Of a stretch of DNA of 64,000 bases, positions 29,909 through 37,561 are shown piece by piece (position 1 is the first letter of the stretch; each line of letters starts with the position of its first letter). A program made the translations under genes and the position numbers. The stretch is taken from the NCBI GenBank assembly GCA_963621995.1, contig CAVFFZ010000001.1, positions 134,522-198,521 of the forward strand, in the 5' to 3' direction. Under the pieces are notes generated by a model. It was not told the origin of the DNA. It saw nothing but the letters and a program-made list of their open reading frames with translations, and ran no database searches. Origin of the DNA: Lachnospiraceae bacterium (lineage in GTDB: Bacteria; Bacillota; Clostridia; TANB77; CAG-508).

Positions 29909-31906
29909 CTATTTTGCCATATCTTCAAATTCTTTTTCTGTTATAATTGTTATTCCTAGTTCTTGTGCTTTTGCAAGTTTTGAACCTGCATCTTCACCTG
30001 CTAGGACATATGATGTTTTTTTAGACACAGAAGATGATGTTTTTCCACCATATTTTTCTATTAAATCCTCTGCTTCTTTTCTAGAATATTTTTCTAGTGC
30101 TCCTGTTAATACAAAAATTTTTCCTTCAAAACGATTATCTATATTATCTTCTTGCAAACTTTCCATATTTACGCCTAAATTTTCAAGTTTTTTAATAATA
30201 TCTTTAGTTTGCTCTTGCGAAAAAAATTCTATAATGTTATTTGCTGTAATTTCTCCAATATCATCTGTTAAAGCTAAATTTTCAAAGCTTGCATTTGAAA
30301 GTTCTTCCATTGTTTTATATTTTTTTGCCAAAACTTTTGCTGCTTTAATTCCTACTTGCCTTATTCCTAATGCATTTATTACATGGAATAAGTCTTGTTT
30401 TTTGCTTTTTTCTATTGAATCTATCAAATTTTGAGCAAATTTCTTTCCATTTTTCTTTAATGATGCAACATCTTCTAAACTTAAAGTATAAATATCTGCT
30501 ATATTTTTTATTAAACCTTTTTCTATTAATTGTTCTACTATTTTATATCCTAGCCCATCTATATCCATTGCTTCTTTAGAGACAAAATGGACTATACTTC
30601 TTAAAAGTTGTGCAGGGCATTCTATTCCTATGCACCTTGTTGCAGCTTCGCCTTCTACTCTTACTGCTTGTGCTCCACATACTGGGCAAACTTTAGGCAT
30701 TTCAAATTCTTTTTCTTTCCCTGTTCTTTTTTCTTTTACAACTTTTATTACTTCTGGTATAACATCACCTTGTTTTTGAATAACAACTGTATCCCCAATT
30801 TTTAAGTCTTTTTCTTTTATAAAGTCTTCGTTGTGAAGTGTTGTTTTTGATATTGTTGAGCCTGCAACTTTTACTGGCTCTAATATTGCCATTGGCGTTA
30901 TTACACCGGTTCTTCCTACTTGGCAAACTATATCTTTTAATATAGTTTCTTTTGCTTCTGGTGGATATTTGTAAGCTATTGCCCACTTTGGTGTTTTGTA
31001 TGTTGTTCCTAATTTTTCTCTAAACGAAAGTGAATCTACTTTTACAACTGCGCCATCTATACCAAATGATAAGTTTTCCCTATCTTCCCCTATTTTATTA
31101 ATTGCTTCTTCTACTTCTTGTTGATTTTTGCATAATATTCTTACAGGATTTACATTAAAGCCTAATTTTTCTAAATAATTTAGTTCATCATAATGTGAAT
31201 TAAATTTACCATCATCCCATTTTTGTACATTAAATATAAATATATCTAATGGTCTTTCTTCTGTTACTTTTGAATTTAATTGCCTTAAAGAACCTGCCGC
31301 TGCATTTCTTGCATTTGCAAATAATTTTTTTCCTAATACTTCTTGTTCTTCGTTTAATTTTTCAAATTCTTTTGTTCCAATAAAAACTTCTCCACGCACA
31401 GTTATTGTTACTTTTTCGTTTAACACTTTTGGAATACTTTTTATAGTTCTCAAATTATCTGTAACATCTTCTCCAATTAAGCCATTTCCTCTTGTTGCTC
31501 CTCTTACAAACACACCATCTACATATTCTAAAGCTGTTGATAAACCATCAATTTTAGTTTCTACAACATAACGTAATTCTTCATTTTCTTCTATTGCTTG
31601 TTTTTTTATTCTATCATCAAATTCTCTTAGTTCTTCAAAAGAAAATACATCTTGAAGACTTTGAAGTGGTACTTCATGAACTACTTCTTTAAAACCTTCT
31701 TTAACATGTCCACCTACTTTTTGTGTTAATGAATCCTTGGTTATAAGCTCTGGGAACTCTTTTTCTAAAGCTTTTAGTCTATTCATCATCATGTCGTACT
31801 TGTAGTCTGTTATTTCTGGCTTGTCCTCATCATAATATTTATTGGCATAATACTCTAATTTTTCTCTTAATTCTTTTATTTGTTTTTTAGCTTCTTCTAA
31901 ATTCAT
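29909..31906 (-). CDS. ligA: NAD-dependent DNA ligase LigA
   Basis: KIDGLS adenylation motif, four-Cys zinc finger (CPVCGAQAVRVEGEAATRCIGIECPAQ), HhH and BRCT regions. Confidence 0.95.
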   Translation of the reverse strand: MNLEEAKKQIKELREKLEYYANKYYDEDKPEITDYKYDMMMNRLKALEKEFPELITKDSLTQKVGGHVKEGFKEVVHEVPLQSLQDVFSFEELREFDDRIKKQAIEENEELRYVVETKIDGLSTALEYVDGVFVRGATRGNGLIGEDVTDNLRTIKSIPKVLNEKVTITVRGEVFIGTKEFEKLNEEQEVLGKKLFANARNAAAGSLRQLNSKVTEERPLDIFIFNVQKWDDGKFNSHYDELNYLEKLGFNVNPVRILCKNQQEVEEAINKIGEDRENLSFGIDGAVVKVDSLSFREKLGTTYKTPKWAIAYKYPPEAKETILKDIVCQVGRTGVITPMAILEPVKVAGSTISKTTLHNEDFIKEKDLKIGDTVVIQKQGDVIPEVIKVVKEKRTGKEKEFEMPKVCPVCGAQAVRVEGEAATRCIGIECPAQLLRSIVHFVSKEAMDIDGLGYKIVEQLIEKGLIKNIADIYTLSLEDVASLKKNGKKFAQNLIDSIEKSKKQDLFHVINALGIRQVGIKAAKVLAKKYKTMEELSNASFENLALTDDIGEITANNIIEFFSQEQTKDIIKKLENLGVNMESLQEDNIDNRFEGKIFVLTGALEKYSRKEAEDLIEKYGGKTSSSVSKKTSYVLAGEDAGSKLAKAQELGITIITEKEFEDMAK

Positions 31907-32125
31907 TTTTTCCTCCTAGGAAACTTTAAAATAAAATGTTTTCAAAATTTCTTTTTTTATTATATACAAAAGATAAAAAAAAATAAATAGTATTTTTTAA
32001 TATCCTGTAAAATTTTAATTTTCTCTTACACCTTGCAGTTACTTTACAAAATTGCATTTACTTTTTTACTTCATGGAATTTTTAATTTGGTTCATTTTTC
32101 CCTTTCTAACTATATAACCTCTATG

Positions 32126-32650
32126 CTATGCATAAAAACCGTATAAAATTTCTTCTTCATTTACATTATTTTCTTTCATGTAATCATCACATCTTTTTTC
32201 TAGTAATTTAAAATTGCAACATCTATCTTGTAAGTCTTTGTTGGCATGTCCATTTGAAATTATATAATATAAATTTCTTGCTCTATTTTGAATTCGTAAA
32301 GTATTTAAATCAATCCAATTCATTTGATTTATAATCATATTTTTATATTTTATATCCTCTATTTTATCTATTTCTATTTTTTCTAAATAACTACTTGGTA
32401 TAGGTATCATATTATTTAAATTTATTCCGCCTAGTCTACCATTATCTATTTTTAAAAAGTCTTGCATGTTTTTCATTATTAAATGTTTCTTTTTTGGTGA
32501 TGTTAAAGGTGCAAAAAAATTCTTACCATTTACATTTAGTATAACTCCTATAAATGGTCTATTTTCCTTTTCATTTTCTATGTATGGTATTTTAGGTTCA
32601 TAATAATGTAAATAATTACAATATTCTATATCTGCTTTGTATAAATTCAT
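32126..32650 (-). CDS. toxN: ToxN/AbiQ-family endoribonuclease toxin (type III TA toxin fold); the likely start is MNLYKADIEY
   Basis: PFIGVILNVNGKNFFAPLTSPKKKH, LGGINLNNMIPI and CNFKLLEKRCDDY align with ToxN (AFIGIVLEIQGHKYLAPLTSPKKWH; LGLINLKFMIPI; CDFAVLEEKYRDY). Confidence 0.8.
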   Translation of the reverse strand: MNLYKADIEYCNYLHYYEPKIPYIENEKENRPFIGVILNVNGKNFFAPLTSPKKKHLIMKNMQDFLKIDNGRLGGINLNNMIPIPSSYLEKIEIDKIEDIKYKNMIINQMNWIDLNTLRIQNRARNLYYIISNGHANKDLQDRCCNFKLLEKRCDDYMKENNVNEEEILYGFYA

Positions 32651-32749
32651 ATTACAATGCATAATTAAAACATTTAAAATACTTTAATTATTTGCTCCTT
32701 TCCTTTTTATTTTTTACTTTCTAGGCATTATTAATAAAAGTCAAAATCT

Positions 32750-32959
32750 TTATAGATTTGCACTTTTGTGTATTATTCTTTTTATTATAACTAATTTTTC
32801 TTTTTTCTGGATTTCATAAAAGATTAAAGAATTTTTATAGATTTTAAATCTGTTTTTAGTTTTTTTATATTTAACCCCTATATATGGAAAATAAGATAAA
32901 TTATAAATCGATTTTTCTATATCTATTCTAAAATTTTCTGCTGCTATTGGATTTTTCAA
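32750..32959 (-). CDS. RelE/ParE-superfamily toxin-like protein, short
   Basis: C-terminal block KNSLIFYEIQKKEKLVIIKRIIHKS resembles the ParE/RelE YRIIYxI...VxIxRIxHRK pattern. Confidence 0.5.
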   Translation of the reverse strand: MKNPIAAENFRIDIEKSIYNLSYFPYIGVKYKKTKNRFKIYKNSLIFYEIQKKEKLVIIKRIIHKSANL

Positions 32960-33012
32960 TTTAATTTTAATATAATTTGAAATTCGATTTATATTCTTTA
33001 TCGATAAATTTG

Positions 33013-33204
33013 CTATACTCTACGATGTAGTTTATAATATTTTTCTCCTAAAAGTTGCCCCCAAACTTCATCATGTGAATATAATTTATTTCCATTCCTT
33101 TTTTGTTCTTCATCTACTTCTGCTAGTAGTCTGTCTATTCTATCTTCTTCCTCTTTTGTAAAGAATGCTTCATTTCCTACAATTCGCATATGTATTTTCT
33201 CCAT
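33013..33204 (-). CDS. Small antitoxin-like protein (63 aa) heading the three-gene module
   Basis: Its position and size are typical of a type II antitoxin upstream of a ParE/RelE gene. No specific family recognised. Confidence 0.35.
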   Translation of the reverse strand: MEKIHMRIVGNEAFFTKEEEDRIDRLLAEVDEEQKRNGNKLYSHDEVWGQLLGEKYYKLHRRV

Positions 33205-33377
33205 CCATTTTTTTGTTTAATTCTATATCATTTTTACTTATAAGTCAATTATTTTTATGTAAATTCTCAAAGAAATTTTCGACAAATTTCATCATAAAAC
33301 ATTATCTTATAGCCGTGTTCCAAAACCGAGAAAAAGTAACAATTATGGACTGTCCCCAATTGCTACTTTCTTACTTC

Positions 33378-35993
33378 TTATGACATTTTTTCTTTAATTT
33401 TAACCAATGTGTTTAGTGCATCTATTGGTGTTAATACGTTTAAGTCTATTTTATCTATCTCTTGTGCAAGTTCTGCTAATTTATAGTTGCCCATATCTAA
33501 TTGTCCTTCAACTTGCTTTTTACTTTCTATTTGTTTTCCATTTAAGATATTTTTTCTTTCTAATGAACGTAATATTTCATTTGCTCTTTTAGTTACATCT
33601 TTTGGAACTCCTGCTAAACGTGCAACATGAACGCCATAACTTTCATCTGTTCCACCATTTACTATTTTTCTTAAAAAGATAATGTCTTCTCCTTTTTCTT
33701 TAACGGCTATAGAATAATTTTTTATTCCTTCTAATTTGTTTTCTAAGTCTGTTAATTCATGATAATGTGTTGCAAATAGTGTTTTCGCACCACATCTTTC
33801 TTTGTCTGCTATGTATTCTGCGACAGCCCATGCAATAGAAAGTCCATCATATGTAGAAGTTCCTCTTCCTATTTCGTCAAGTATTACTAAACTATTTGAA
33901 GTTGCATTTTTTAGTATTGTCGCTACTTCCATCATTTCTACCATAAAAGTACTCTGTCCCATACTTAAATCGTCTGAAGCACCGACTCTTGTAAATATTT
34001 TGTCTACAACTCCTATTTTTGCATAACTTGCAGGAACAAATGAACCTATTTGAGCCATTAGTGTAATTAATGCTACTTGTCTCATATATGTAGATTTACC
34101 TGCCATATTAGGTCCTGTAATTATCGCAAGTCTTGAATCTGCTTTATCTAAATATGTATCATTTTGAACAAAACTTCCTGATGGTAACATTTTTTCTATA
34201 ACAGGATGACGTCCGTCTTTTATATCTATTACTCCACTATTATCAACTATTGGTTCTACATAGTTCATATCTTCTGCAACTTGTGCTAATGAGCATAAAA
34301 CGTCTAATATAGAAATTACTTCTGATGATTTTTGTATTCTTCTTATTTTTCCTTCTATATCGTTTCTTATTTCAACAAACGCATTATATTCTAAGTTTAT
34401 AACTCTTTCTTCTGCACCTAAAATTTGATTTTCCAAATTTTTAAGTTCTTCTGTTATGTATCTTTCACCATTTGTTAATGTTTGTTTACGAATATATCTG
34501 TCTGGCACTAAATTCATATTTGATTTTGTTACTTCTAAATAATAACCAAATACTCTATTAAATCCTATTTTTAAGCCTTTTATTCCTGTTTGTTCTCTTT
34601 CTTTTGCTTCCAACTCAACTAGCCATGTTTTTCCTTGTGTTGATGCTTTTTTTAGTTGGTCTATTTCTTCATTATAGCCTACTTTTATTAAATTTCCTTC
34701 TTTTATTGACATTGGTGGTTCATCTACAATTGCTTCTTCTATTAAGTCATGAATATCTGTTAATTCGTCTAAATTTTCATATAAGTGTCTTAATAATTTT
34801 GCATTTGTATTTTCCAATACTTTTTTAACTAAAGGAAGTTGCTTTGTTGAATTTTTAAGAGAAATCATATCTCTACCTGTTGCATTTCCATATGCTATTC
34901 TTCCAGCTAGTCGTTCCATATCATAAACTTTTTTAAGAGCTTCTATAGCATCTCCTCTTAAAATGATATTATCTTTTAGTTCTTTTACCGCTTCTAATCT
35001 GTTATTTATCTCCCATACATCTACTAATGGGTCATTAAGCCATCTTCTAAGCATTCTACCTCCCATTGATGTAGAAGTTTTGTCTAAAACCCACAAAAGC
35101 GTACCTTTTTTAGATTTATCTCTCATTTTTTCTGTTATTTCTAAGTTTCTTCTTGCACTAATATCTAATGACATATATTTTGTAGTAGTATAAACTATTA
35201 TTTTATTTATATGGTCTAAATTAGTTTTCTGTGTTTCTATTAAATACTCTAATAATCCATTTATTGAAGATACTATTAATTCTTTATCTTCTAAGCTTTC
35301 TATTTTTTCTTCATGGTCATTTGCAAATAAATAGTTTTGTAATAATTTTTCTGTATCTTTTGAAAAAGCTTCTTCTTTTACTCTTGAAATATATACTTCA
35401 AAACGTTCTTTTATTTTAGATATTTCTTCTAAAGAATCATACATGAAAGGGTTTACTATTATTTCTGCAGGATTAAACTTAGAAATTTCATCTAATAATT
35501 TTGGAAAATTATTATTTTCTGCAATTTGCGTTGTTCTAAAATCACCTGTTGAAACGTCGCAAACACTTACTCCATAATATAAACCTGTTTTGTATACACT
35601 CATTATATAATTATTTTTCTTTTCGTCTAATAAATTACTTTCTATAACGGTTCCTGGCGTTACTACACGAATAACCCCTCTTTTAACAATTCCTTTTGCT
35701 TGTTTTGGATCTTCTAATTGTTCACAAATGGCAACTTTATAACCTTTTTCAATCAGTTTTGCAATATATGTATCTGCAGCATGAAATGGAATACCACACA
35801 TCGGCGCACGCTCTTCTTGTCCACATAGCTTACCTGTAAGTGTCAGTTCTAATTCCTTTGATGCTTTAATTGCATCATCAAAAAACATTTCATAAAAGTC
35901 ACCTAAACGATAGAATAATATACAATCTTGATATTCTTCTTTTGTATTTAAGTATTCTTGCATCATAGGTGAAAATTCTGATTTTTCTGCCAT
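33378..35993 (-). CDS. mutS: DNA mismatch repair protein MutS
   Basis: N-terminal mismatch-binding domain (PMMQEYLNTKEEYQDCILFYRLGDFYEMFFDDA) and Walker A GPNMAGKSTYMRQ. Confidence 0.95.
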   Translation of the reverse strand: MAEKSEFSPMMQEYLNTKEEYQDCILFYRLGDFYEMFFDDAIKASKELELTLTGKLCGQEERAPMCGIPFHAADTYIAKLIEKGYKVAICEQLEDPKQAKGIVKRGVIRVVTPGTVIESNLLDEKKNNYIMSVYKTGLYYGVSVCDVSTGDFRTTQIAENNNFPKLLDEISKFNPAEIIVNPFMYDSLEEISKIKERFEVYISRVKEEAFSKDTEKLLQNYLFANDHEEKIESLEDKELIVSSINGLLEYLIETQKTNLDHINKIIVYTTTKYMSLDISARRNLEITEKMRDKSKKGTLLWVLDKTSTSMGGRMLRRWLNDPLVDVWEINNRLEAVKELKDNIILRGDAIEALKKVYDMERLAGRIAYGNATGRDMISLKNSTKQLPLVKKVLENTNAKLLRHLYENLDELTDIHDLIEEAIVDEPPMSIKEGNLIKVGYNEEIDQLKKASTQGKTWLVELEAKEREQTGIKGLKIGFNRVFGYYLEVTKSNMNLVPDRYIRKQTLTNGERYITEELKNLENQILGAEERVINLEYNAFVEIRNDIEGKIRRIQKSSEVISILDVLCSLAQVAEDMNYVEPIVDNSGVIDIKDGRHPVIEKMLPSGSFVQNDTYLDKADSRLAIITGPNMAGKSTYMRQVALITLMAQIGSFVPASYAKIGVVDKIFTRVGASDDLSMGQSTFMVEMMEVATILKNATSNSLVILDEIGRGTSTYDGLSIAWAVAEYIADKERCGAKTLFATHYHELTDLENKLEGIKNYSIAVKEKGEDIIFLRKIVNGGTDESYGVHVARLAGVPKDVTKRANEILRSLERKNILNGKQIESKKQVEGQLDMGNYKLAELAQEIDKIDLNVLTPIDALNTLVKIKEKMS

Positions 35994-36101
35994 CTTTTAT
36001 TACTCCTTTATTTGTATTTTCTATATTATTTTTTGTAACTTTTTGTACCTGTTCTGCTTTTTTAACTTTTTTACTTAAGTCGATAAAAACATAATTAAGC
36101 A

Positions 36102-36154
36102 GGAATGTCCCCTATGTTCCGAATTTGGAACGAAAAGGACCGTCCCTAGTGTTC
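36102..36154. repeat. 55-nt compound palindromic element, copy 3. It overlaps the miaB stop codon and its last three codons.
   Basis: GGAATGTCCCCTATGTTCCGAATTTGGAACGAAAAGGACCGTCCCTAGTGTTC. The miaB TAG lies at 36146-36148 inside the element. Confidence 0.7.
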
Positions 36155-37561
36155 TCCTTTTAAATACCACATATGTTCGGAAATTATTTTTACATCTATC
36201 ATTTTTCCTATTAGACTTTCGTTTCCTTCAAAAACAACTACTTTATTTGAATCTGTTCTACCTGTTAACATTTCTTCATTGTTTTTGCTTGTTCCTTCAA
36301 CAAATATTTTTTGCACTGTTCCTATATATGTTTGATTATTTTCAGCTATTTGACTTTCTACTAGAGCTTTTAGTTTGTCAAAATTCTTATGTTTTATTTC
36401 TTCTGGTATTTGGTTTTCCATTTTATCTGCTGGTGTTCCAACTCTTCTTGAATATATAAACATAAATACTTGTTCAAATTTTACTTTTCTTACCACATCT
36501 AGTGTGTCTTCAAATTCTTCTGCAGTCTCTCCTGGGAACCCTACTATTATGTCTGTTGTAAATCTTACATTTGGTATTTTTTCTCTTATTTTATTTACTA
36601 AATCTAAATATTGTTCTTTAGTATATTTTCTATTCATTCTTTTTAATACTTCTGTACTTCCAGATTGAAGAGGTAAATGTACTAATTTGCAAACTTTATC
36701 GCAATCACGTATTGCTTCTATTACGTCATTTGTAAAATCCTTTGGGTGTGGTGATACAAAGCGTATTCTGTCTATTCCATCAATTTTATTTACTGCTCTT
36801 AAAAGTGTTGCAAATGAGTTGATTCCTTCATATTCTTCAAATTCTATATTTTTTTCACGTTCTACTCTTAAGTATGAATTAACATTTTGACCTAAAAGTG
36901 TCACTTCTTTATATCCTTGTTTAACTAAATCTCTTATTTCTTCTATTATATCCCTTGGATTTCTACTTCTTTCTCTTCCTCTCACATATGGAACTATACA
37001 ATATGTACAGAAGTTATTACATCCATTCATAATTGTAACAGATGCTTTAGTTTTATCATTTCTAGAAATAGGTAGTCCTTCTATAACCTCACCATCTATA
37101 TCTAATATATCTCTTATTTTTCTATTTTCTTCTATTGATTCATATAAGTCTTTTGGAAATTTATGAAGTGTATGTGTACCCAATATTATATCTACATATG
37201 GATAACTTTCTTTTAACTTTTTAATAATATGTTCTTCTTGCATCATACAGCCACCAATTGCAATAATTGTACCTTTTTCTTCTTTTTGTTTTTTTACTTC
37301 TCCTACTTTTCCAAAAAGTTTTTCCTCTGCATTCTCACGTACACAACATGTATTAAATAAAACTAAATCTGCCTCTTTCATATTTTCTGTTCTTGCATAA
37401 TTCATTTTTTCAAGCATACCACATAATTTTTCAGAATCATTTTCATTTAATTGGCATCCCATTGTCATTATGTAGTATTTTAAATTTTTATTTTTATTTT
37501 CATTTATTTTATTTACTTTTTCTATATATTTTAGCTCTTCATCTATATTTACTGGTTTCAC
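36146..37561 (-). CDS. miaB: tRNA-i6A37 methylthiotransferase MiaB (radical SAM MTTase)
   Basis: MTTase N-terminal domain (MTMGCQLNENDSEKLCGML), rSAM CNNFCTYC motif and TRAM domain. Confidence 0.85.
   Translation of the reverse strand: MKPVNIDEELKYIEKVNKINENKNKNLKYYIMTMGCQLNENDSEKLCGMLEKMNYARTENMKEADLVLFNTCCVRENAEEKLFGKVGEVKKQKEEKGTIIAIGGCMMQEEHIIKKLKESYPYVDIILGTHTLHKFPKDLYESIEENRKIRDILDIDGEVIEGLPISRNDKTKASVTIMNGCNNFCTYCIVPYVRGRERSRNPRDIIEEIRDLVKQGYKEVTLLGQNVNSYLRVEREKNIEFEEYEGINSFATLLRAVNKIDGIDRIRFVSPHPKDFTNDVIEAIRDCDKVCKLVHLPLQSGSTEVLKRMNRKYTKEQYLDLVNKIREKIPNVRFTTDIIVGFPGETAEEFEDTLDVVRKVKFEQVFMFIYSRRVGTPADKMENQIPEEIKHKNFDKLKALVESQIAENNQTYIGTVQKIFVEGTSKNNEEMLTGRTDSNKVVVFEGNESLIGKMIDVKIISEHMWYLKGEH

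What the first reader, a model, noticed from the sequence alone, without database searches (positions are those of the whole stretch)
32126..33204. ToxN/AbiQ toxin without a ToxI RNA array, chained behind a ParE/RelE-like gene and a small antitoxin-like gene
The ORF at 32126-32650 matches ToxN (type III toxin) at the N-terminal FIGxxLxxxGxxYxAPLTSPKK block, the central LGxINLxxMIPI block and the C-terminal CxFxxLEEKxxDY block. Type III systems normally carry 2-5.5 tandem ~36-nt toxI repeats plus a terminator immediately upstream of toxN. Here the 87 bp upstream is non-repetitive and is followed directly by a ParE/RelE-like 69-aa ORF and a 63-aa antitoxin-like ORF, all co-directional. Either ToxN is held in check by a protein antitoxin (a type II-like solution for a type III toxin), or this is a tripartite anti-phage module, or the toxN is inactive. 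The module sits between mutS and ligA where Clostridia usually have mutL-miaA-hfq.
Basis: partly seen in the sequence, partly recalled or inferred. Interest (0 to 1): 0.75.

Follow-up and report, generated by a model that had tools for sequence, protein, structure and literature searches.

The report
ToxN toxin gene lacking its RNA antitoxin
This gut Clostridia genome has an apparently active ToxN/AbiQ RNA-cutting toxin gene with no sign of the repeated RNA antitoxin that normally restrains such toxins, and the small toxin-antitoxin pair beside it is a separate, decaying cassette rather than its keeper.

Summary
All genes are on the minus strand.

- **toxN:** 32126-32650 encodes a full-length ToxN/AbiQ protein (Pfam 3e-47). 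Its predicted fold matches solved ToxN/AbiQ structures, and the catalytic residues are kept.
- **No antitoxin RNA:** no ToxI-type tandem array was found next to the gene or anywhere in the 64 kb window.
- **Not a one-off:** 31 more distant ToxN relatives carry a classic 34-37 nt x ~3 array. The 36 closest species-level relatives carry none and form one clade.
- **Conserved position:** in 30 of those 36 genomes toxN lies next to mutS and/or ligA.
- **Selection:** toxN is under strong purifying selection (dN/dS 0.01-0.2).
- **The upstream pair:** these two small genes are an ordinary RelB-like/ParE cassette.
  - The ParE gene is frameshifted in this window.
  - A RelB-like gene is detectable at only 7 of 37 array-less loci.
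  - No trace of the cassette is found in the basal lineages.
  - The cassette also occurs on its own without toxN.

It is therefore very unlikely to be ToxN's antitoxin or an obligate third component, and toxN is not inactive. How this clade tolerates ToxN is unresolved. My best guess is restrained expression, possibly combined with a change in the protein itself. This is a new variant of a known kind.

The parts
33378..35993 (-). mutS, the upstream flanking core gene
   Evidence: Pfam MutS domains I-V, E down to 3e-88. Found upstream of toxN in many related loci.
33220..33248 (-). Promoter-like site TTGACT-17-TAGAAT in front of the RelB-like gene; the likely promoter of the cassette and, by read-through, of toxN
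   Evidence: 10 of 12 consensus match. A similar TTGACA/TTGACT promoter-like sequence is visible by eye in L011, L013, L015 and L017. Function is inferred.
33013..33204 (-). RelB/DUF6290-like antitoxin-like ORF, 63 aa (58 aa if it starts at the second ATG, 33189, as in the relatives)
   Evidence: Sub-threshold matches to DUF6290 (E 0.004) and RelB_antitoxin (E 0.025). Its 3' end overlaps the start of the ParE reading frame. Homologues pair with ParE genes at loci with and without toxN.
32750..33038 (-). ParE-like toxin pseudogene. One extra T at 33006-33008 breaks the frame. The 69-aa ORF at 32750-32959 is its 3' remnant.
   Evidence: The 90-residue frame of L002/L003 matches PF05016 over profile positions 2-86 of 89 (E 2e-11). 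The window matches only positions 22-86. The alignment shows AAATTTATCG here against AAATTATCG in five relatives. The upstream frame reads ...INYIVEYSKFIDKEYKSNFKLY*. An ATT start at 33038, placed after the AGGAG, is my inference.
32801..32828 (-). 28-nt stretch TTTAATCTTTTATGAAATCCAGAAAAAA (encodes FLIFYEIQ), conserved at nucleotide level in this ParE subfamily
   Evidence: Single match in the window, none expected by chance. Kept with 5 or fewer mismatches upstream of toxN in 21 loci, including loci with a broken ParE. Also present in ParE genes with no toxN nearby.
32736..32767 (-). AT-rich hairpin over the ParE stop codon, followed by TTTTATT; a weak terminator or attenuator before toxN
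   Evidence: Predicted in the minimum-free-energy fold. A hairpin sits at the same place with different stem sequences in other lineages. It does not meet the G+C-rich terminator rule.
32695..32703 (-). Shine-Dalgarno-like GGAAAGGAG, 44 nt ahead of the toxN ATG
   Evidence: Read from the sequence. In other lineages a GAAAGGAA-type site lies a few nt before the ATG.
32661..32691 (-). 15-bp AT-rich hairpin between the Shine-Dalgarno-like site and the toxN start, found in this lineage only
   Evidence: Inverted repeat I9 and minimum-free-energy fold. Present in L001-L005 and L083, absent from other lineages.
32126..32650 (-). toxN: ToxN/AbiQ-family endoribonuclease, 174 aa, member of the array-less clade
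   Evidence: PF13958 3e-47, AbiQ 7e-38. PDB sequence hits 4ATO 6e-24 and 2XD0 2e-19. AF2 model pLDDT 91.7. Foldseek TM 0.74-0.82 to 2XD0, 7D8O, 4ATO and 4GLK. dN/dS 0.09-0.16 against the closest relatives.
31907..32125 (-). toxN-ligA spacer with a conserved promoter-like TTGTATATAAT (31959-31969); no repeat array
   Evidence: TRF on this spacer finds only a weak 19-nt low-complexity match that is absent from L001-L005. The fold is not better than shuffled sequence (z -0.23).
29909..31906 (-). ligA, the downstream flanking core gene
   Evidence: Pfam NAD-dependent ligase domains, E 1e-88. Follows toxN in most related loci.

Best explanation
Two independent elements lie side by side.

**(a) A type II cassette.** A RelB-like antitoxin gene and a ParE-family toxin gene were inserted between mutS and toxN in one sub-lineage and are now decaying. 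In this genome the ParE gene is frameshifted.

**(b) A stand-alone toxN.** It belongs to a clade of ToxN/AbiQ endoribonucleases that lost the ToxI repeat array once. In this group of uncultured gut Clostridia it has stayed at a fixed chromosomal site just upstream of ligA.

Shown here:
- There is no array and no single ToxI-like unit.
- The catalytic residues and the fold are intact.
- The gene is under strong purifying selection.
- No partner gene is conserved across the clade.
- toxN persists in lineages with no detectable RelB-like or ParE gene.

Inferred:
- ToxN is still an active RNA-cleaving enzyme, most likely used in phage defence or stress response.
- It is not restrained by a locally encoded RNA or protein antitoxin. 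Restraint more likely comes from limited expression, possibly together with a clade-specific change in the protein.
- In this genome, limited expression would arise from read-through from the cassette promoter at 33220-33248, past a weak hairpin, followed by translation from a Shine-Dalgarno-like site displaced 44 nt from the ATG by an AT hairpin.
- The candidate protein change is a conserved acidic C-terminal tail.
For: **Array present in relatives, absent in this clade.** TRF found 34-37 nt x 2.2-3.3 arrays upstream of toxN in 31 more distant loci (at most 49% identity). It found none in the 36 loci at 47-95% identity (L001-L035 and L037). The ToxI covariance model scored 38-51 bits on positive controls and at most about 15 bits in the window and in 42 array-less loci.

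**One clade.** On a neighbour-joining tree the array-less genes group together, nested among array-bearing ToxN genes.

**Synteny.** 30 of the 36 loci, and the frameshifted L052, have mutS and/or ligA next to toxN. Identity to the window is 80-99% for MutS, 71-98% for LigA and 47-95% for ToxN.

**Selection.** dN/dS is 0.01-0.2 in every subgroup, and 0.02-0.04 in the ParE-less group L024-L028.

**Active site.** Active-site K33/T52/S53/K55 and RNA-positioning Y110/Q117 of E. coli ToxN (PMC8860590) correspond to R31, T50, S51, K53, Y102 and Q109 here. These are conserved across the clade.

**Structure.** AF2 pLDDT is 91.7, and the Foldseek top hits are the four solved ToxN/AbiQ structures.

**The cassette is separate.**
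- A tblastn search found the RelB-like gene only in the window and L001-L006.
- ParE is an open 90-residue frame in L001-L003 and L005.
- It is frameshifted in the window and L004, and reduced to stop-interrupted or 3' fragments in about 17 loci.
- No trace was detected in about 15 loci, which include the basal L024-L028 and L033-L034.
- The same gene pair stands alone in L081, L088 and L090.

**No RNA element inside toxN.** Synonymous sites show no suppressed region (observed/expected ratio 0.68-1.0).

**Little room for a leader RNA.** In L013, L033 and L034, by eye, the spacer before toxN is only a terminator-like hairpin, a promoter-like site and a ribosome-binding site.
Against: - No known ToxN/AbiQ is reported to be tolerated without its RNA antitoxin. 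A solo active toxin needs an explanation I cannot supply from sequence alone.
- L013 and the paralogues L019 and L022 show promoter-like and/or strong Shine-Dalgarno-like signals directly before toxN (by eye). Low expression therefore cannot be the general answer.
- Only 3 kb either side of each related locus, and 64 kb here, were searched. A trans-encoded antitoxin elsewhere in these genomes is not excluded.
- The extra T in ParE could be an assembly error.
- The tree has no support values.
- The weak hairpin and the displaced Shine-Dalgarno-like site are predictions only. The leader fold is not better than shuffled sequence (z -0.68).
Confidence: 0.6

Rival explanations
1. The RelB-like protein (or the ParE remnant) is a protein antitoxin for ToxN, that is, a type II-style solution for a type III toxin.
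For: The three genes are co-directional and probably share one promoter. The RelB-like ORF remains intact here although ParE is broken. The RelB-like/ParE/toxN arrangement recurs with ToxN identities from 95% down to about 66% (L002, L003, L083, L096, L084, L085).
Against: The RelB-like gene is undetectable upstream of 30 of 37 array-less toxN genes, which remain intact and constrained. Basal lineages have mutS followed directly by toxN, so array loss predates the cassette. The same antitoxin family serves stand-alone ParE genes and carries no extra domain in the loci that contain toxN.
Confidence: 0.06
2. The RelB-like gene, ParE and ToxN form one three-part anti-phage module that needs all three components.
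For: The adjacency recurs in several lineages.
Against: ParE is frameshifted here and in L004, fragmentary in about 17 species and undetected in about 15, while toxN stays under purifying selection. The pair also exists without toxN.
Confidence: 0.06
3. A non-repeated RNA made from the toxN leader, including the conserved 28-nt ParE-derived stretch and the hairpin, acts as a single-copy antitoxin.
For: The 28-nt stretch and a hairpin with varying stem sequence are retained upstream of toxN even where ParE is dead (L010, L011, L012, L018, L021). The two Ile codons within it are ATC in most of these lineages, whereas Ile codons elsewhere in toxN are mostly ATA or ATT. The upstream 180 nt diverge less than toxN synonymous sites in close pairs (3.5-7% against 9-14%).
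Against: The same 23-nt core sits in ParE genes with no toxN nearby (L081, L088, L090, L093). It is absent from about 16 array-less loci, including L013, L016, L024-L028 and L033-L034. The leader does not fold better than shuffled sequence.
Confidence: 0.08
4. The protein inhibits itself. The conserved acidic C-terminal tail (..NxxxEEEILY), which appeared in the same clade that lost the array, occupies the RNA groove or active site as a built-in antitoxin until a trigger releases it.
For: The tail residues are conserved in the array-less clade (E165 and E167 89%, Y170 96%). In the array-bearing sister sequences these positions are mostly alignment gaps, because the sequences are shorter. The tail has a median charge of -3, while the core charge is unchanged at +9. 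AF2 places residues 161-170 with pLDDT 93 and a beta-bridge at L169.
Against: ToxN of Pectobacterium, which does have ToxI, also ends in an acidic tail. I could not read the model coordinates, so no contact with T50/S51/K53 has been shown. The tail may simply be structural.
Confidence: 0.12
5. The antitoxin is encoded in trans elsewhere in the genome, or ToxN has been domesticated as a non-toxic housekeeping RNase that is inherited together with ligA.
For: Stable synteny across about 30 species and strong purifying selection resemble a core gene. No local partner is conserved.
Against: ToxN evolves much faster than its neighbours (47% identity where MutS is 81%). Some genomes carry three or four paralogues in unrelated contexts (L011/L019/L022/L030 and L020/L023/L032). 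One species has a frameshifted copy (L052). These features are more typical of accessory or defence genes. No array lies within 64 kb.
Confidence: 0.2

Closest known systems
ToxIN of Bacillus thuringiensis / AbiQ-antiQ of Lactococcus (ToxIN family of type III toxin-antitoxin systems; PDB 4ATO, 4GLK)
   Same: Same protein family, fold and active-site motif (APLTSPK). The sister clade of this gene carries arrays with the unit AAAAAGCGGTG...CCC..GGG.., 34-37 nt x about 3.
   Different: There is no repeat array and no single ToxI-like unit near the gene. The position is chromosomal and syntenic rather than on a plasmid or mobile element. The protein carries a conserved acidic C-terminal extension.
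ToxIN of Pectobacterium atrosepticum and E. coli (PDB 2XD0, 7D8O)
   Same: Catalytic K33/T52/S53/K55 and Y110/Q117 equivalents are kept. TM-score 0.75-0.82.
   Different: Only 29% identity. No 36-nt x 5.5 toxI array and no G+C-rich terminator before toxN.
RelBE/ParDE-type type II toxin-antitoxin cassettes
   Same: A small acidic ORF overlaps the start of a ParE_toxin-domain gene, with a promoter-like site upstream.
   Different: The toxin gene is frameshifted in this genome. The similarity of the antitoxin to known families is below threshold. The cassette abuts a type III-family toxin gene.
Fused or self-inhibited toxins such as CapRel(SJ46), listed as PMC9712102; what follows about it is my recollection, as I did not read the paper
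   Same: A possible analogy only: a toxin with no separate antitoxin, restrained by its own C-terminal region.
   Different: There the C-terminal part is a whole antitoxin domain with an experimentally shown trigger. Here it is a tail of roughly 10-15 residues with no functional evidence.

Membership tests
ToxN/AbiQ toxin family (Pfam PF13958) | Full-length match to the family profile above the curated cut-off | tested here: met
   161.1 bits against a cut-off of 25, profile positions 1-159 of 159. PADLOC AbiQ 7e-38.
ToxN/AbiQ toxin family (Pfam PF13958) | ToxN fold | tested here: met
   AF2 pLDDT 91.7, pTM 0.88. Foldseek TM 0.74-0.82 to 2XD0, 7D8O, 4ATO and 4GLK, probability 1.00.
ToxN/AbiQ toxin family (Pfam PF13958) | Catalytic residues (Lys/Arg33, Thr52, Ser53, Lys55) and RNA-positioning Tyr110 and Gln117 | tested here: met
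   R31, T50, S51, K53, Y102 and Q109, mapped through the alignment to 2XD0. Residue roles come from PMC8860590. Conserved in the 18- and 80-sequence alignments.
ToxN/AbiQ toxin family (Pfam PF13958) | Sequence-specific endoribonuclease activity and toxicity | not testable with these tools
   Needs an enzyme assay and a kill/rescue assay.
Type III toxin-antitoxin system (ToxIN type) | Tandem array of about 31-60-nt repeats immediately upstream of the toxin gene | tested here: not met
   TRF and repeat search. ToxI covariance model: at most 14.5 bits in the window against 38-51 bits for true units.
Type III toxin-antitoxin system (ToxIN type) | Intrinsic terminator between the antitoxin RNA and the toxin gene | tested here: inconclusive
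   A weak AT-rich hairpin plus TTTTATT lies at 32736-32767. It fails the G+C-rich terminator rule and follows a ParE remnant, not an RNA array.
Type III toxin-antitoxin system (ToxIN type) | RNA antitoxin that binds and inhibits the toxin | not testable with these tools
   No candidate RNA is conserved across the clade.
Type II ParDE/RelBE cassette | Intact ParE/RelE-superfamily toxin gene | tested here: not met
   PF05016 matches only profile positions 22-86 in the window. The frame is broken by an extra T at 33006-33008. The frame is open and full length in L002 and L003 (E 2e-11).
Type II ParDE/RelBE cassette | Small antitoxin gene directly upstream of the toxin gene, overlapping or abutting it | tested here: met
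   The 3' end of the 63-aa ORF overlaps the ParE reading frame. The same pairing occurs at loci with and without toxN.
Type II ParDE/RelBE cassette | Antitoxin homologous to a known antitoxin family | tested here: inconclusive
   DUF6290 E 0.003-0.004 (about 18 bits against a cut-off of 27). RelB_antitoxin E 0.025 (15 bits against 50). No PDB relative, even with a profile.

The most novel reading that the evidence does not exclude
In this clade the RNA antitoxin has been replaced by the protein itself. The conserved acidic C-terminal tail (EEEILY), which appeared together with loss of the ToxI array, would act as an intramolecular pseudo-substrate that keeps ToxN off until a phage or stress signal displaces it. 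That would make this a single-gene, self-restrained descendant of a type III toxin-antitoxin system, fixed in the core genome next to ligA.
Probability: 0.12. Interest if true: 0.8.

Novelty: new variant of a known kind. Interest (0 to 1): 0.6.

Why it matters
Type III toxin-antitoxin systems are defined by a repeat RNA that both inhibits the toxin and is processed by it. Surveys such as Blower et al. 2012 (PMC3401426) required a tandem repeat array when they called such loci. Array-less relatives would therefore have been missed by design.

Here a whole clade of ToxN genes lacks any array, keeps an intact active site, is under strong purifying selection, and sits at a fixed core-genome site in some 30 gut Clostridia species. 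Either ToxN toxicity can be tamed by means other than ToxI, or ToxN can be kept for a non-suicidal role. Either answer would change how single-gene "AbiQ" hits from defence-finding tools are interpreted.

The locus also gives a simple experimental handle: one gene, with or without its tail, its leader and its neighbours.

Tried and rejected
- **Rfam.** The scan of 31000-34000 found nothing. It also misses the genuine sister-clade arrays, so it is not informative. I used my own covariance model instead.
- **28-nt ParE-derived stretch as a toxN-specific RNA antitoxin.** Weakened, because a metagenome scan found the same core in ParE genes with no toxN nearby.
- **RNA element hidden inside the toxN coding sequence.** Synonymous-site analysis showed no constrained region.
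- **Antisense-RNA control.** A near-consensus antisense promoter-like site (TTGGCA-16-TATAAT, 32241-32268, plus strand) occurs only in the window and L001-L003 and L005. L004 has TTCGCA. It is not conserved in the rest of the clade.
- **Array downstream of toxN.** Only L024, L026 and L027 show a 31-nt x 2.1 hairpin repeat there. The window has only a weak 19-nt low-complexity match that its closest relatives lack.
- **Loss of RNA-binding charge.** The core net charge is the same in array-less and array-bearing proteins (+9 against +9.5).
- **Homology of the 63-aa protein.** PDB and Pfam searches, including a 10-sequence profile, gave nothing significant.
- **Literature.** Searches for array-less or orphan ToxN found no description. 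One search was swamped by 'toxicity' matches.
- **Phage collection.** Only distant (43% or lower) ToxN homologues were found.
Full report
**What is there.** All genes in the region are on the minus strand, in this order:

| Feature | Coordinates |
|---|---|
| mutS | 33378-35993 |
| 63-aa ORF | 33013-33204 |
| 69-aa ORF | 32750-32959 |
| toxN | 32126-32650 |
| ligA | 29909-31906 |

An upstream in-frame ATG at 32662 exists only in this lineage.

The toxN product matches Pfam ToxN_toxin over the whole profile (E 3.3e-47, 161 bits against a cut-off of 25). It also matches the PADLOC AbiQ model (7e-38). By sequence it hits the four solved ToxN/AbiQ proteins: 4ATO 6e-24, 2XD0 2e-19, 7D8O 5e-18 and 4GLK 3e-9. 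An AlphaFold2 model built on an 80-sequence alignment has pLDDT 91.7 and pTM 0.88. Its best structural matches are those same four entries, with TM 0.74-0.82.

**Is the array really absent?** Yes.
- Tandem Repeats Finder at its lowest score and a seed-7 repeat search over 31800-33500 found only AT-rich low-complexity matches.
- Nothing array-like appears anywhere in the 64 kb window.
- Rfam finds nothing, but it also fails on genuine arrays of related loci, so it is not a valid test.
- I therefore extracted 40 distinct ToxI units from array-bearing relatives and built a covariance model. The units begin AAAAAGCGGTG, and their CCC/GGG-type stems change in a compensatory way between loci. The model scores true units at 38-51 bits.
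- With filters off, its best score in the window is 14.5 bits (E 0.47), inside mutS. Nothing was found in 42 array-less loci.

**Comparative picture.** A scan of one genome per species returned 80 loci that encode ToxN relatives.
- Upstream of toxN, 31 loci have a 34-37 nt x 2.2-3.3 array. All are at 49% protein identity or less.
- None of the 36 closest loci (L001-L035 and L037; 47-95% identity) has an array.
- On a neighbour-joining tree, which has no support values, the array-less genes form one clade nested among array-bearing ones.
- 30 of these 36 loci have mutS upstream and/or ligA downstream of toxN. The same is true of L052, where toxN is frameshifted.
- Identity to the window is 80-99% for MutS, 71-98% for LigA and 47-95% for ToxN.
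- The ligA promoter-like sequence (ACTATTTATTTTTTT..TTTTGTATATAAT) follows the toxN stop codon almost directly in several lineages. That leaves no room for a downstream RNA gene there.
- The genomes are uncultured Clostridia/Clostridiaceae MAGs from human, rabbit and mouse guts.

**Is toxN functional?**
- Residues at the active site of E. coli ToxN are K33, T52, S53 and K55. Y110 and Q117 help hold the RNA (PMC8860590).
- Through the alignment to 2XD0 these map to R31, T50, S51, K53, Y102 and Q109. Arginine at the first position is a known variant.
- These residues are conserved across the clade.
- Pairwise dN/dS is 0.01-0.2 in all seven subgroups. It is 0.02-0.04 in L024-L028, which have no neighbouring cassette at all.
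- The "inactive toxN" reading is therefore rejected.

**The two small genes.**
- In L002 and L003 the ParE-like reading frame is 90 residues and matches PF05016 over profile positions 2-86 of 89 (E 2e-11).
- The reading frame probably begins a little further upstream, at an ATT placed six nt after an AGGAG, giving (M)INYIVEYSKLS... This start is my inference.
- In the window, one extra T (AAATTTATCG against AAATTATCG in five relatives) shifts the frame, and translation would stop after about 23 codons.
- L004 has a different frameshift.
- The 63-aa ORF (58 aa from the second ATG, as in the relatives) has only sub-threshold similarity to DUF6290 and RelB. It has no solved relative. Calling it an antitoxin rests on its position.
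- Related small acidic ORFs sit directly upstream of ParE genes, both next to toxN (L083, L084, L096) and away from any toxN (L081, L088, L090).

**Are they ToxN's partners?** The distribution argues against it.

| State across the 37 array-less loci (window plus 36) | Loci |
|---|---|
| RelB-like gene detected within 1.5 kb upstream | 7 (window, L001-L006) |
| ParE an open full-length frame | L001-L003, L005 |
| ParE frameshifted | window, L004 |
| ParE reduced to stop-interrupted or 3' fragments | about 17 loci |
| No trace of ParE | about 15 loci |

The loci with no trace include the basal L033-L034 and L024-L028. There mutS is followed by toxN after only about 120-200 nt. Array loss and the mutS-toxN-ligA arrangement therefore predate the arrival of the cassette. 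toxN has also outlived the cassette repeatedly. A gene needed to neutralise a toxin cannot be lost this often while the toxin stays intact and constrained.

**Other candidates for a local antitoxin that I tested.**
1. *The 28-nt ParE stretch.* A 28-nt stretch of the ParE gene (32801-32828) and a hairpin with varying stem sequence persist upstream of toxN even where ParE is dead. However, a metagenome scan found the same core in ParE genes with no toxN nearby. The stretch is also missing from about 16 array-less loci.
2. *An element inside toxN.* No region of toxN shows suppressed synonymous change.
3. *An antisense RNA.* The near-consensus antisense promoter-like site inside toxN is confined to this lineage.
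4. *A downstream array.* Downstream repeats exist only in L024, L026 and L027.

**What does distinguish the clade?**
- The core net charge equals that of array-bearing relatives (+9 against +9.5).
- The array-less proteins are slightly longer (median 173 against 166 residues) and end in a conserved acidic tail of the form NxxxEEEILY.
- The tail is modelled with pLDDT 93.
- A few residues that are basic in array-bearing proteins are replaced. Position 15 is Arg in 25 of 30 array-bearing sequences but His here. Position 126 is mostly Lys there but Asn here.
- This is a correlation only. Pectobacterium ToxN also has an acidic C-terminus, and I could not inspect the model coordinates.

**How it most likely works in this genome.**
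- A promoter-like site (TTGACT-17-TAGAAT, 33248-33220) precedes the RelB-like gene.
- The only structure between the ParE remnant and toxN is a weak AT-rich hairpin (32736-32767).
- The Shine-Dalgarno-like GGAAAGGAG lies 44 nt before the toxN ATG. A 15-bp AT hairpin found only in this lineage separates the two.
- I infer low-level, read-through expression of an active nuclease.
- This cannot be the general answer. Other members, such as L013, L019 and L022, show promoter-like and/or strong Shine-Dalgarno-like signals directly before toxN, judged by eye.
- Self-protection across the clade therefore remains unexplained. The open options are an intrinsic change in the protein, a trans factor, or a non-toxic role.

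**Novelty.** The papers I could search describe ToxN/AbiQ only together with repeat RNAs. The main survey required a repeat array to call a locus (PMC3401426). I found no description of an array-less, syntenic ToxN clade. I file the gene as a member of the ToxN/AbiQ protein family. I do not file the locus as a type III toxin-antitoxin system, because the defining array was tested for and is absent.

Noticed in passing
window 32801-32828 (-); also L006-L012, L014, L015, L017, L018, L021, L035, L037, L081, L088, L090, L093: A 23-28 nt stretch of the ParE gene (TTAATCTTTTAYGAAATCCAAGA, encoding LIFYEIQE) is nearly invariant at nucleotide level across lineages whose flanking codons have diverged freely. 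It includes two ATC Ile codons, which are rare in toxN of the same genomes. It survives in dead ParE remnants. The cause is unknown; gene conversion between copies or an RNA- or DNA-level function are possibilities.
   Followed up: partly
window 32661-32691 (-): A 15-bp AT-rich hairpin lies between the Shine-Dalgarno-like site and the toxN start codon. It occurs only in this lineage (window, L001-L005, L083) and pushes that site 44 nt from the ATG. It might bridge or block translation initiation.
   Followed up: partly
window 32241-32268 (+): A near-consensus promoter-like site (TTGGCA-16-TATAAT, 11 of 12) lies antisense inside toxN. It is present in L001-L003 and L005. L004 has TTCGCA, and it is not conserved in other lineages.
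   Followed up: yes
L024, L026 and L027, 43-113 nt after the toxN stop codon: A 31-nt x 2.1 tandem repeat of hairpins (TGTCCCAGAAATATCAAGGATAAGTGAGACA, with a compensatory GTCTCA/TGAGAC against GTCCCA/TGGGAC change) sits between toxN and ligA, after the ligA promoter-like sequence. It could be a ligA leader element or an unusually placed antitoxin-like array. It is absent from the window.
   Followed up: partly
L058, L060, L066, L076 (Erysipelotrichaceae and an unnamed bacterium): A second, separate group of ToxN genes without a detectable array. By eye, a short ORF with a hydrophobic stretch (for example MLQRIMRSNHKSTWKQRIVVWSYVVTFGLVKSAMKQKENVRN) lies just upstream.
   Followed up: no
L019, L022, L023, L032: Array-less toxN paralogues that are not at the mutS-ligA site. 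A co-directional upstream ORF (listed as 187 aa in L032) ends within about 35 nt of toxN. The L032 protein has weak SpoVT_C/GAF similarity (E 0.08-0.26). It may be a protein partner in that subgroup.
   Followed up: partly
L011/L019/L022/L030 (one MAG) and L020/L023/L032 (another MAG): Single genomes carry three or four array-less toxN paralogues, one at the mutS-ligA site and the others in unrelated contexts.
   Followed up: no
L052: In one species the toxN between mutS and ligA is frameshifted (a 76-aa ORF, with 69% identity overall by tblastn). The gene is therefore dispensable in at least one lineage.
   Followed up: no
window 33378-37561 and the whole window: On the minus strand a MiaB-like radical-SAM gene (36146-37561) precedes mutS. 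mutS is followed by the cassette, toxN and ligA rather than by mutL. No MutL-like protein is among the large ORFs of the 64 kb window that I scanned.
   Followed up: partly
window 31990-32110 (-): The toxN-ligA spacer of the window holds roughly 100 nt that its closest relatives L001-L004 lack. L009 has a long inverted repeat in the equivalent ligA leader. This spacer seems prone to small insertions.
   Followed up: no
L049, about 60-250 nt upstream of toxN: An array-less ToxN outside the main clade is preceded by a G+C-rich, non-repeated stretch that starts with AAAAAAAGTGGTG, resembling the start of a ToxI unit. It may be a degenerate or single-copy antitoxin. The ToxI model did not score it.
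   Followed up: partly
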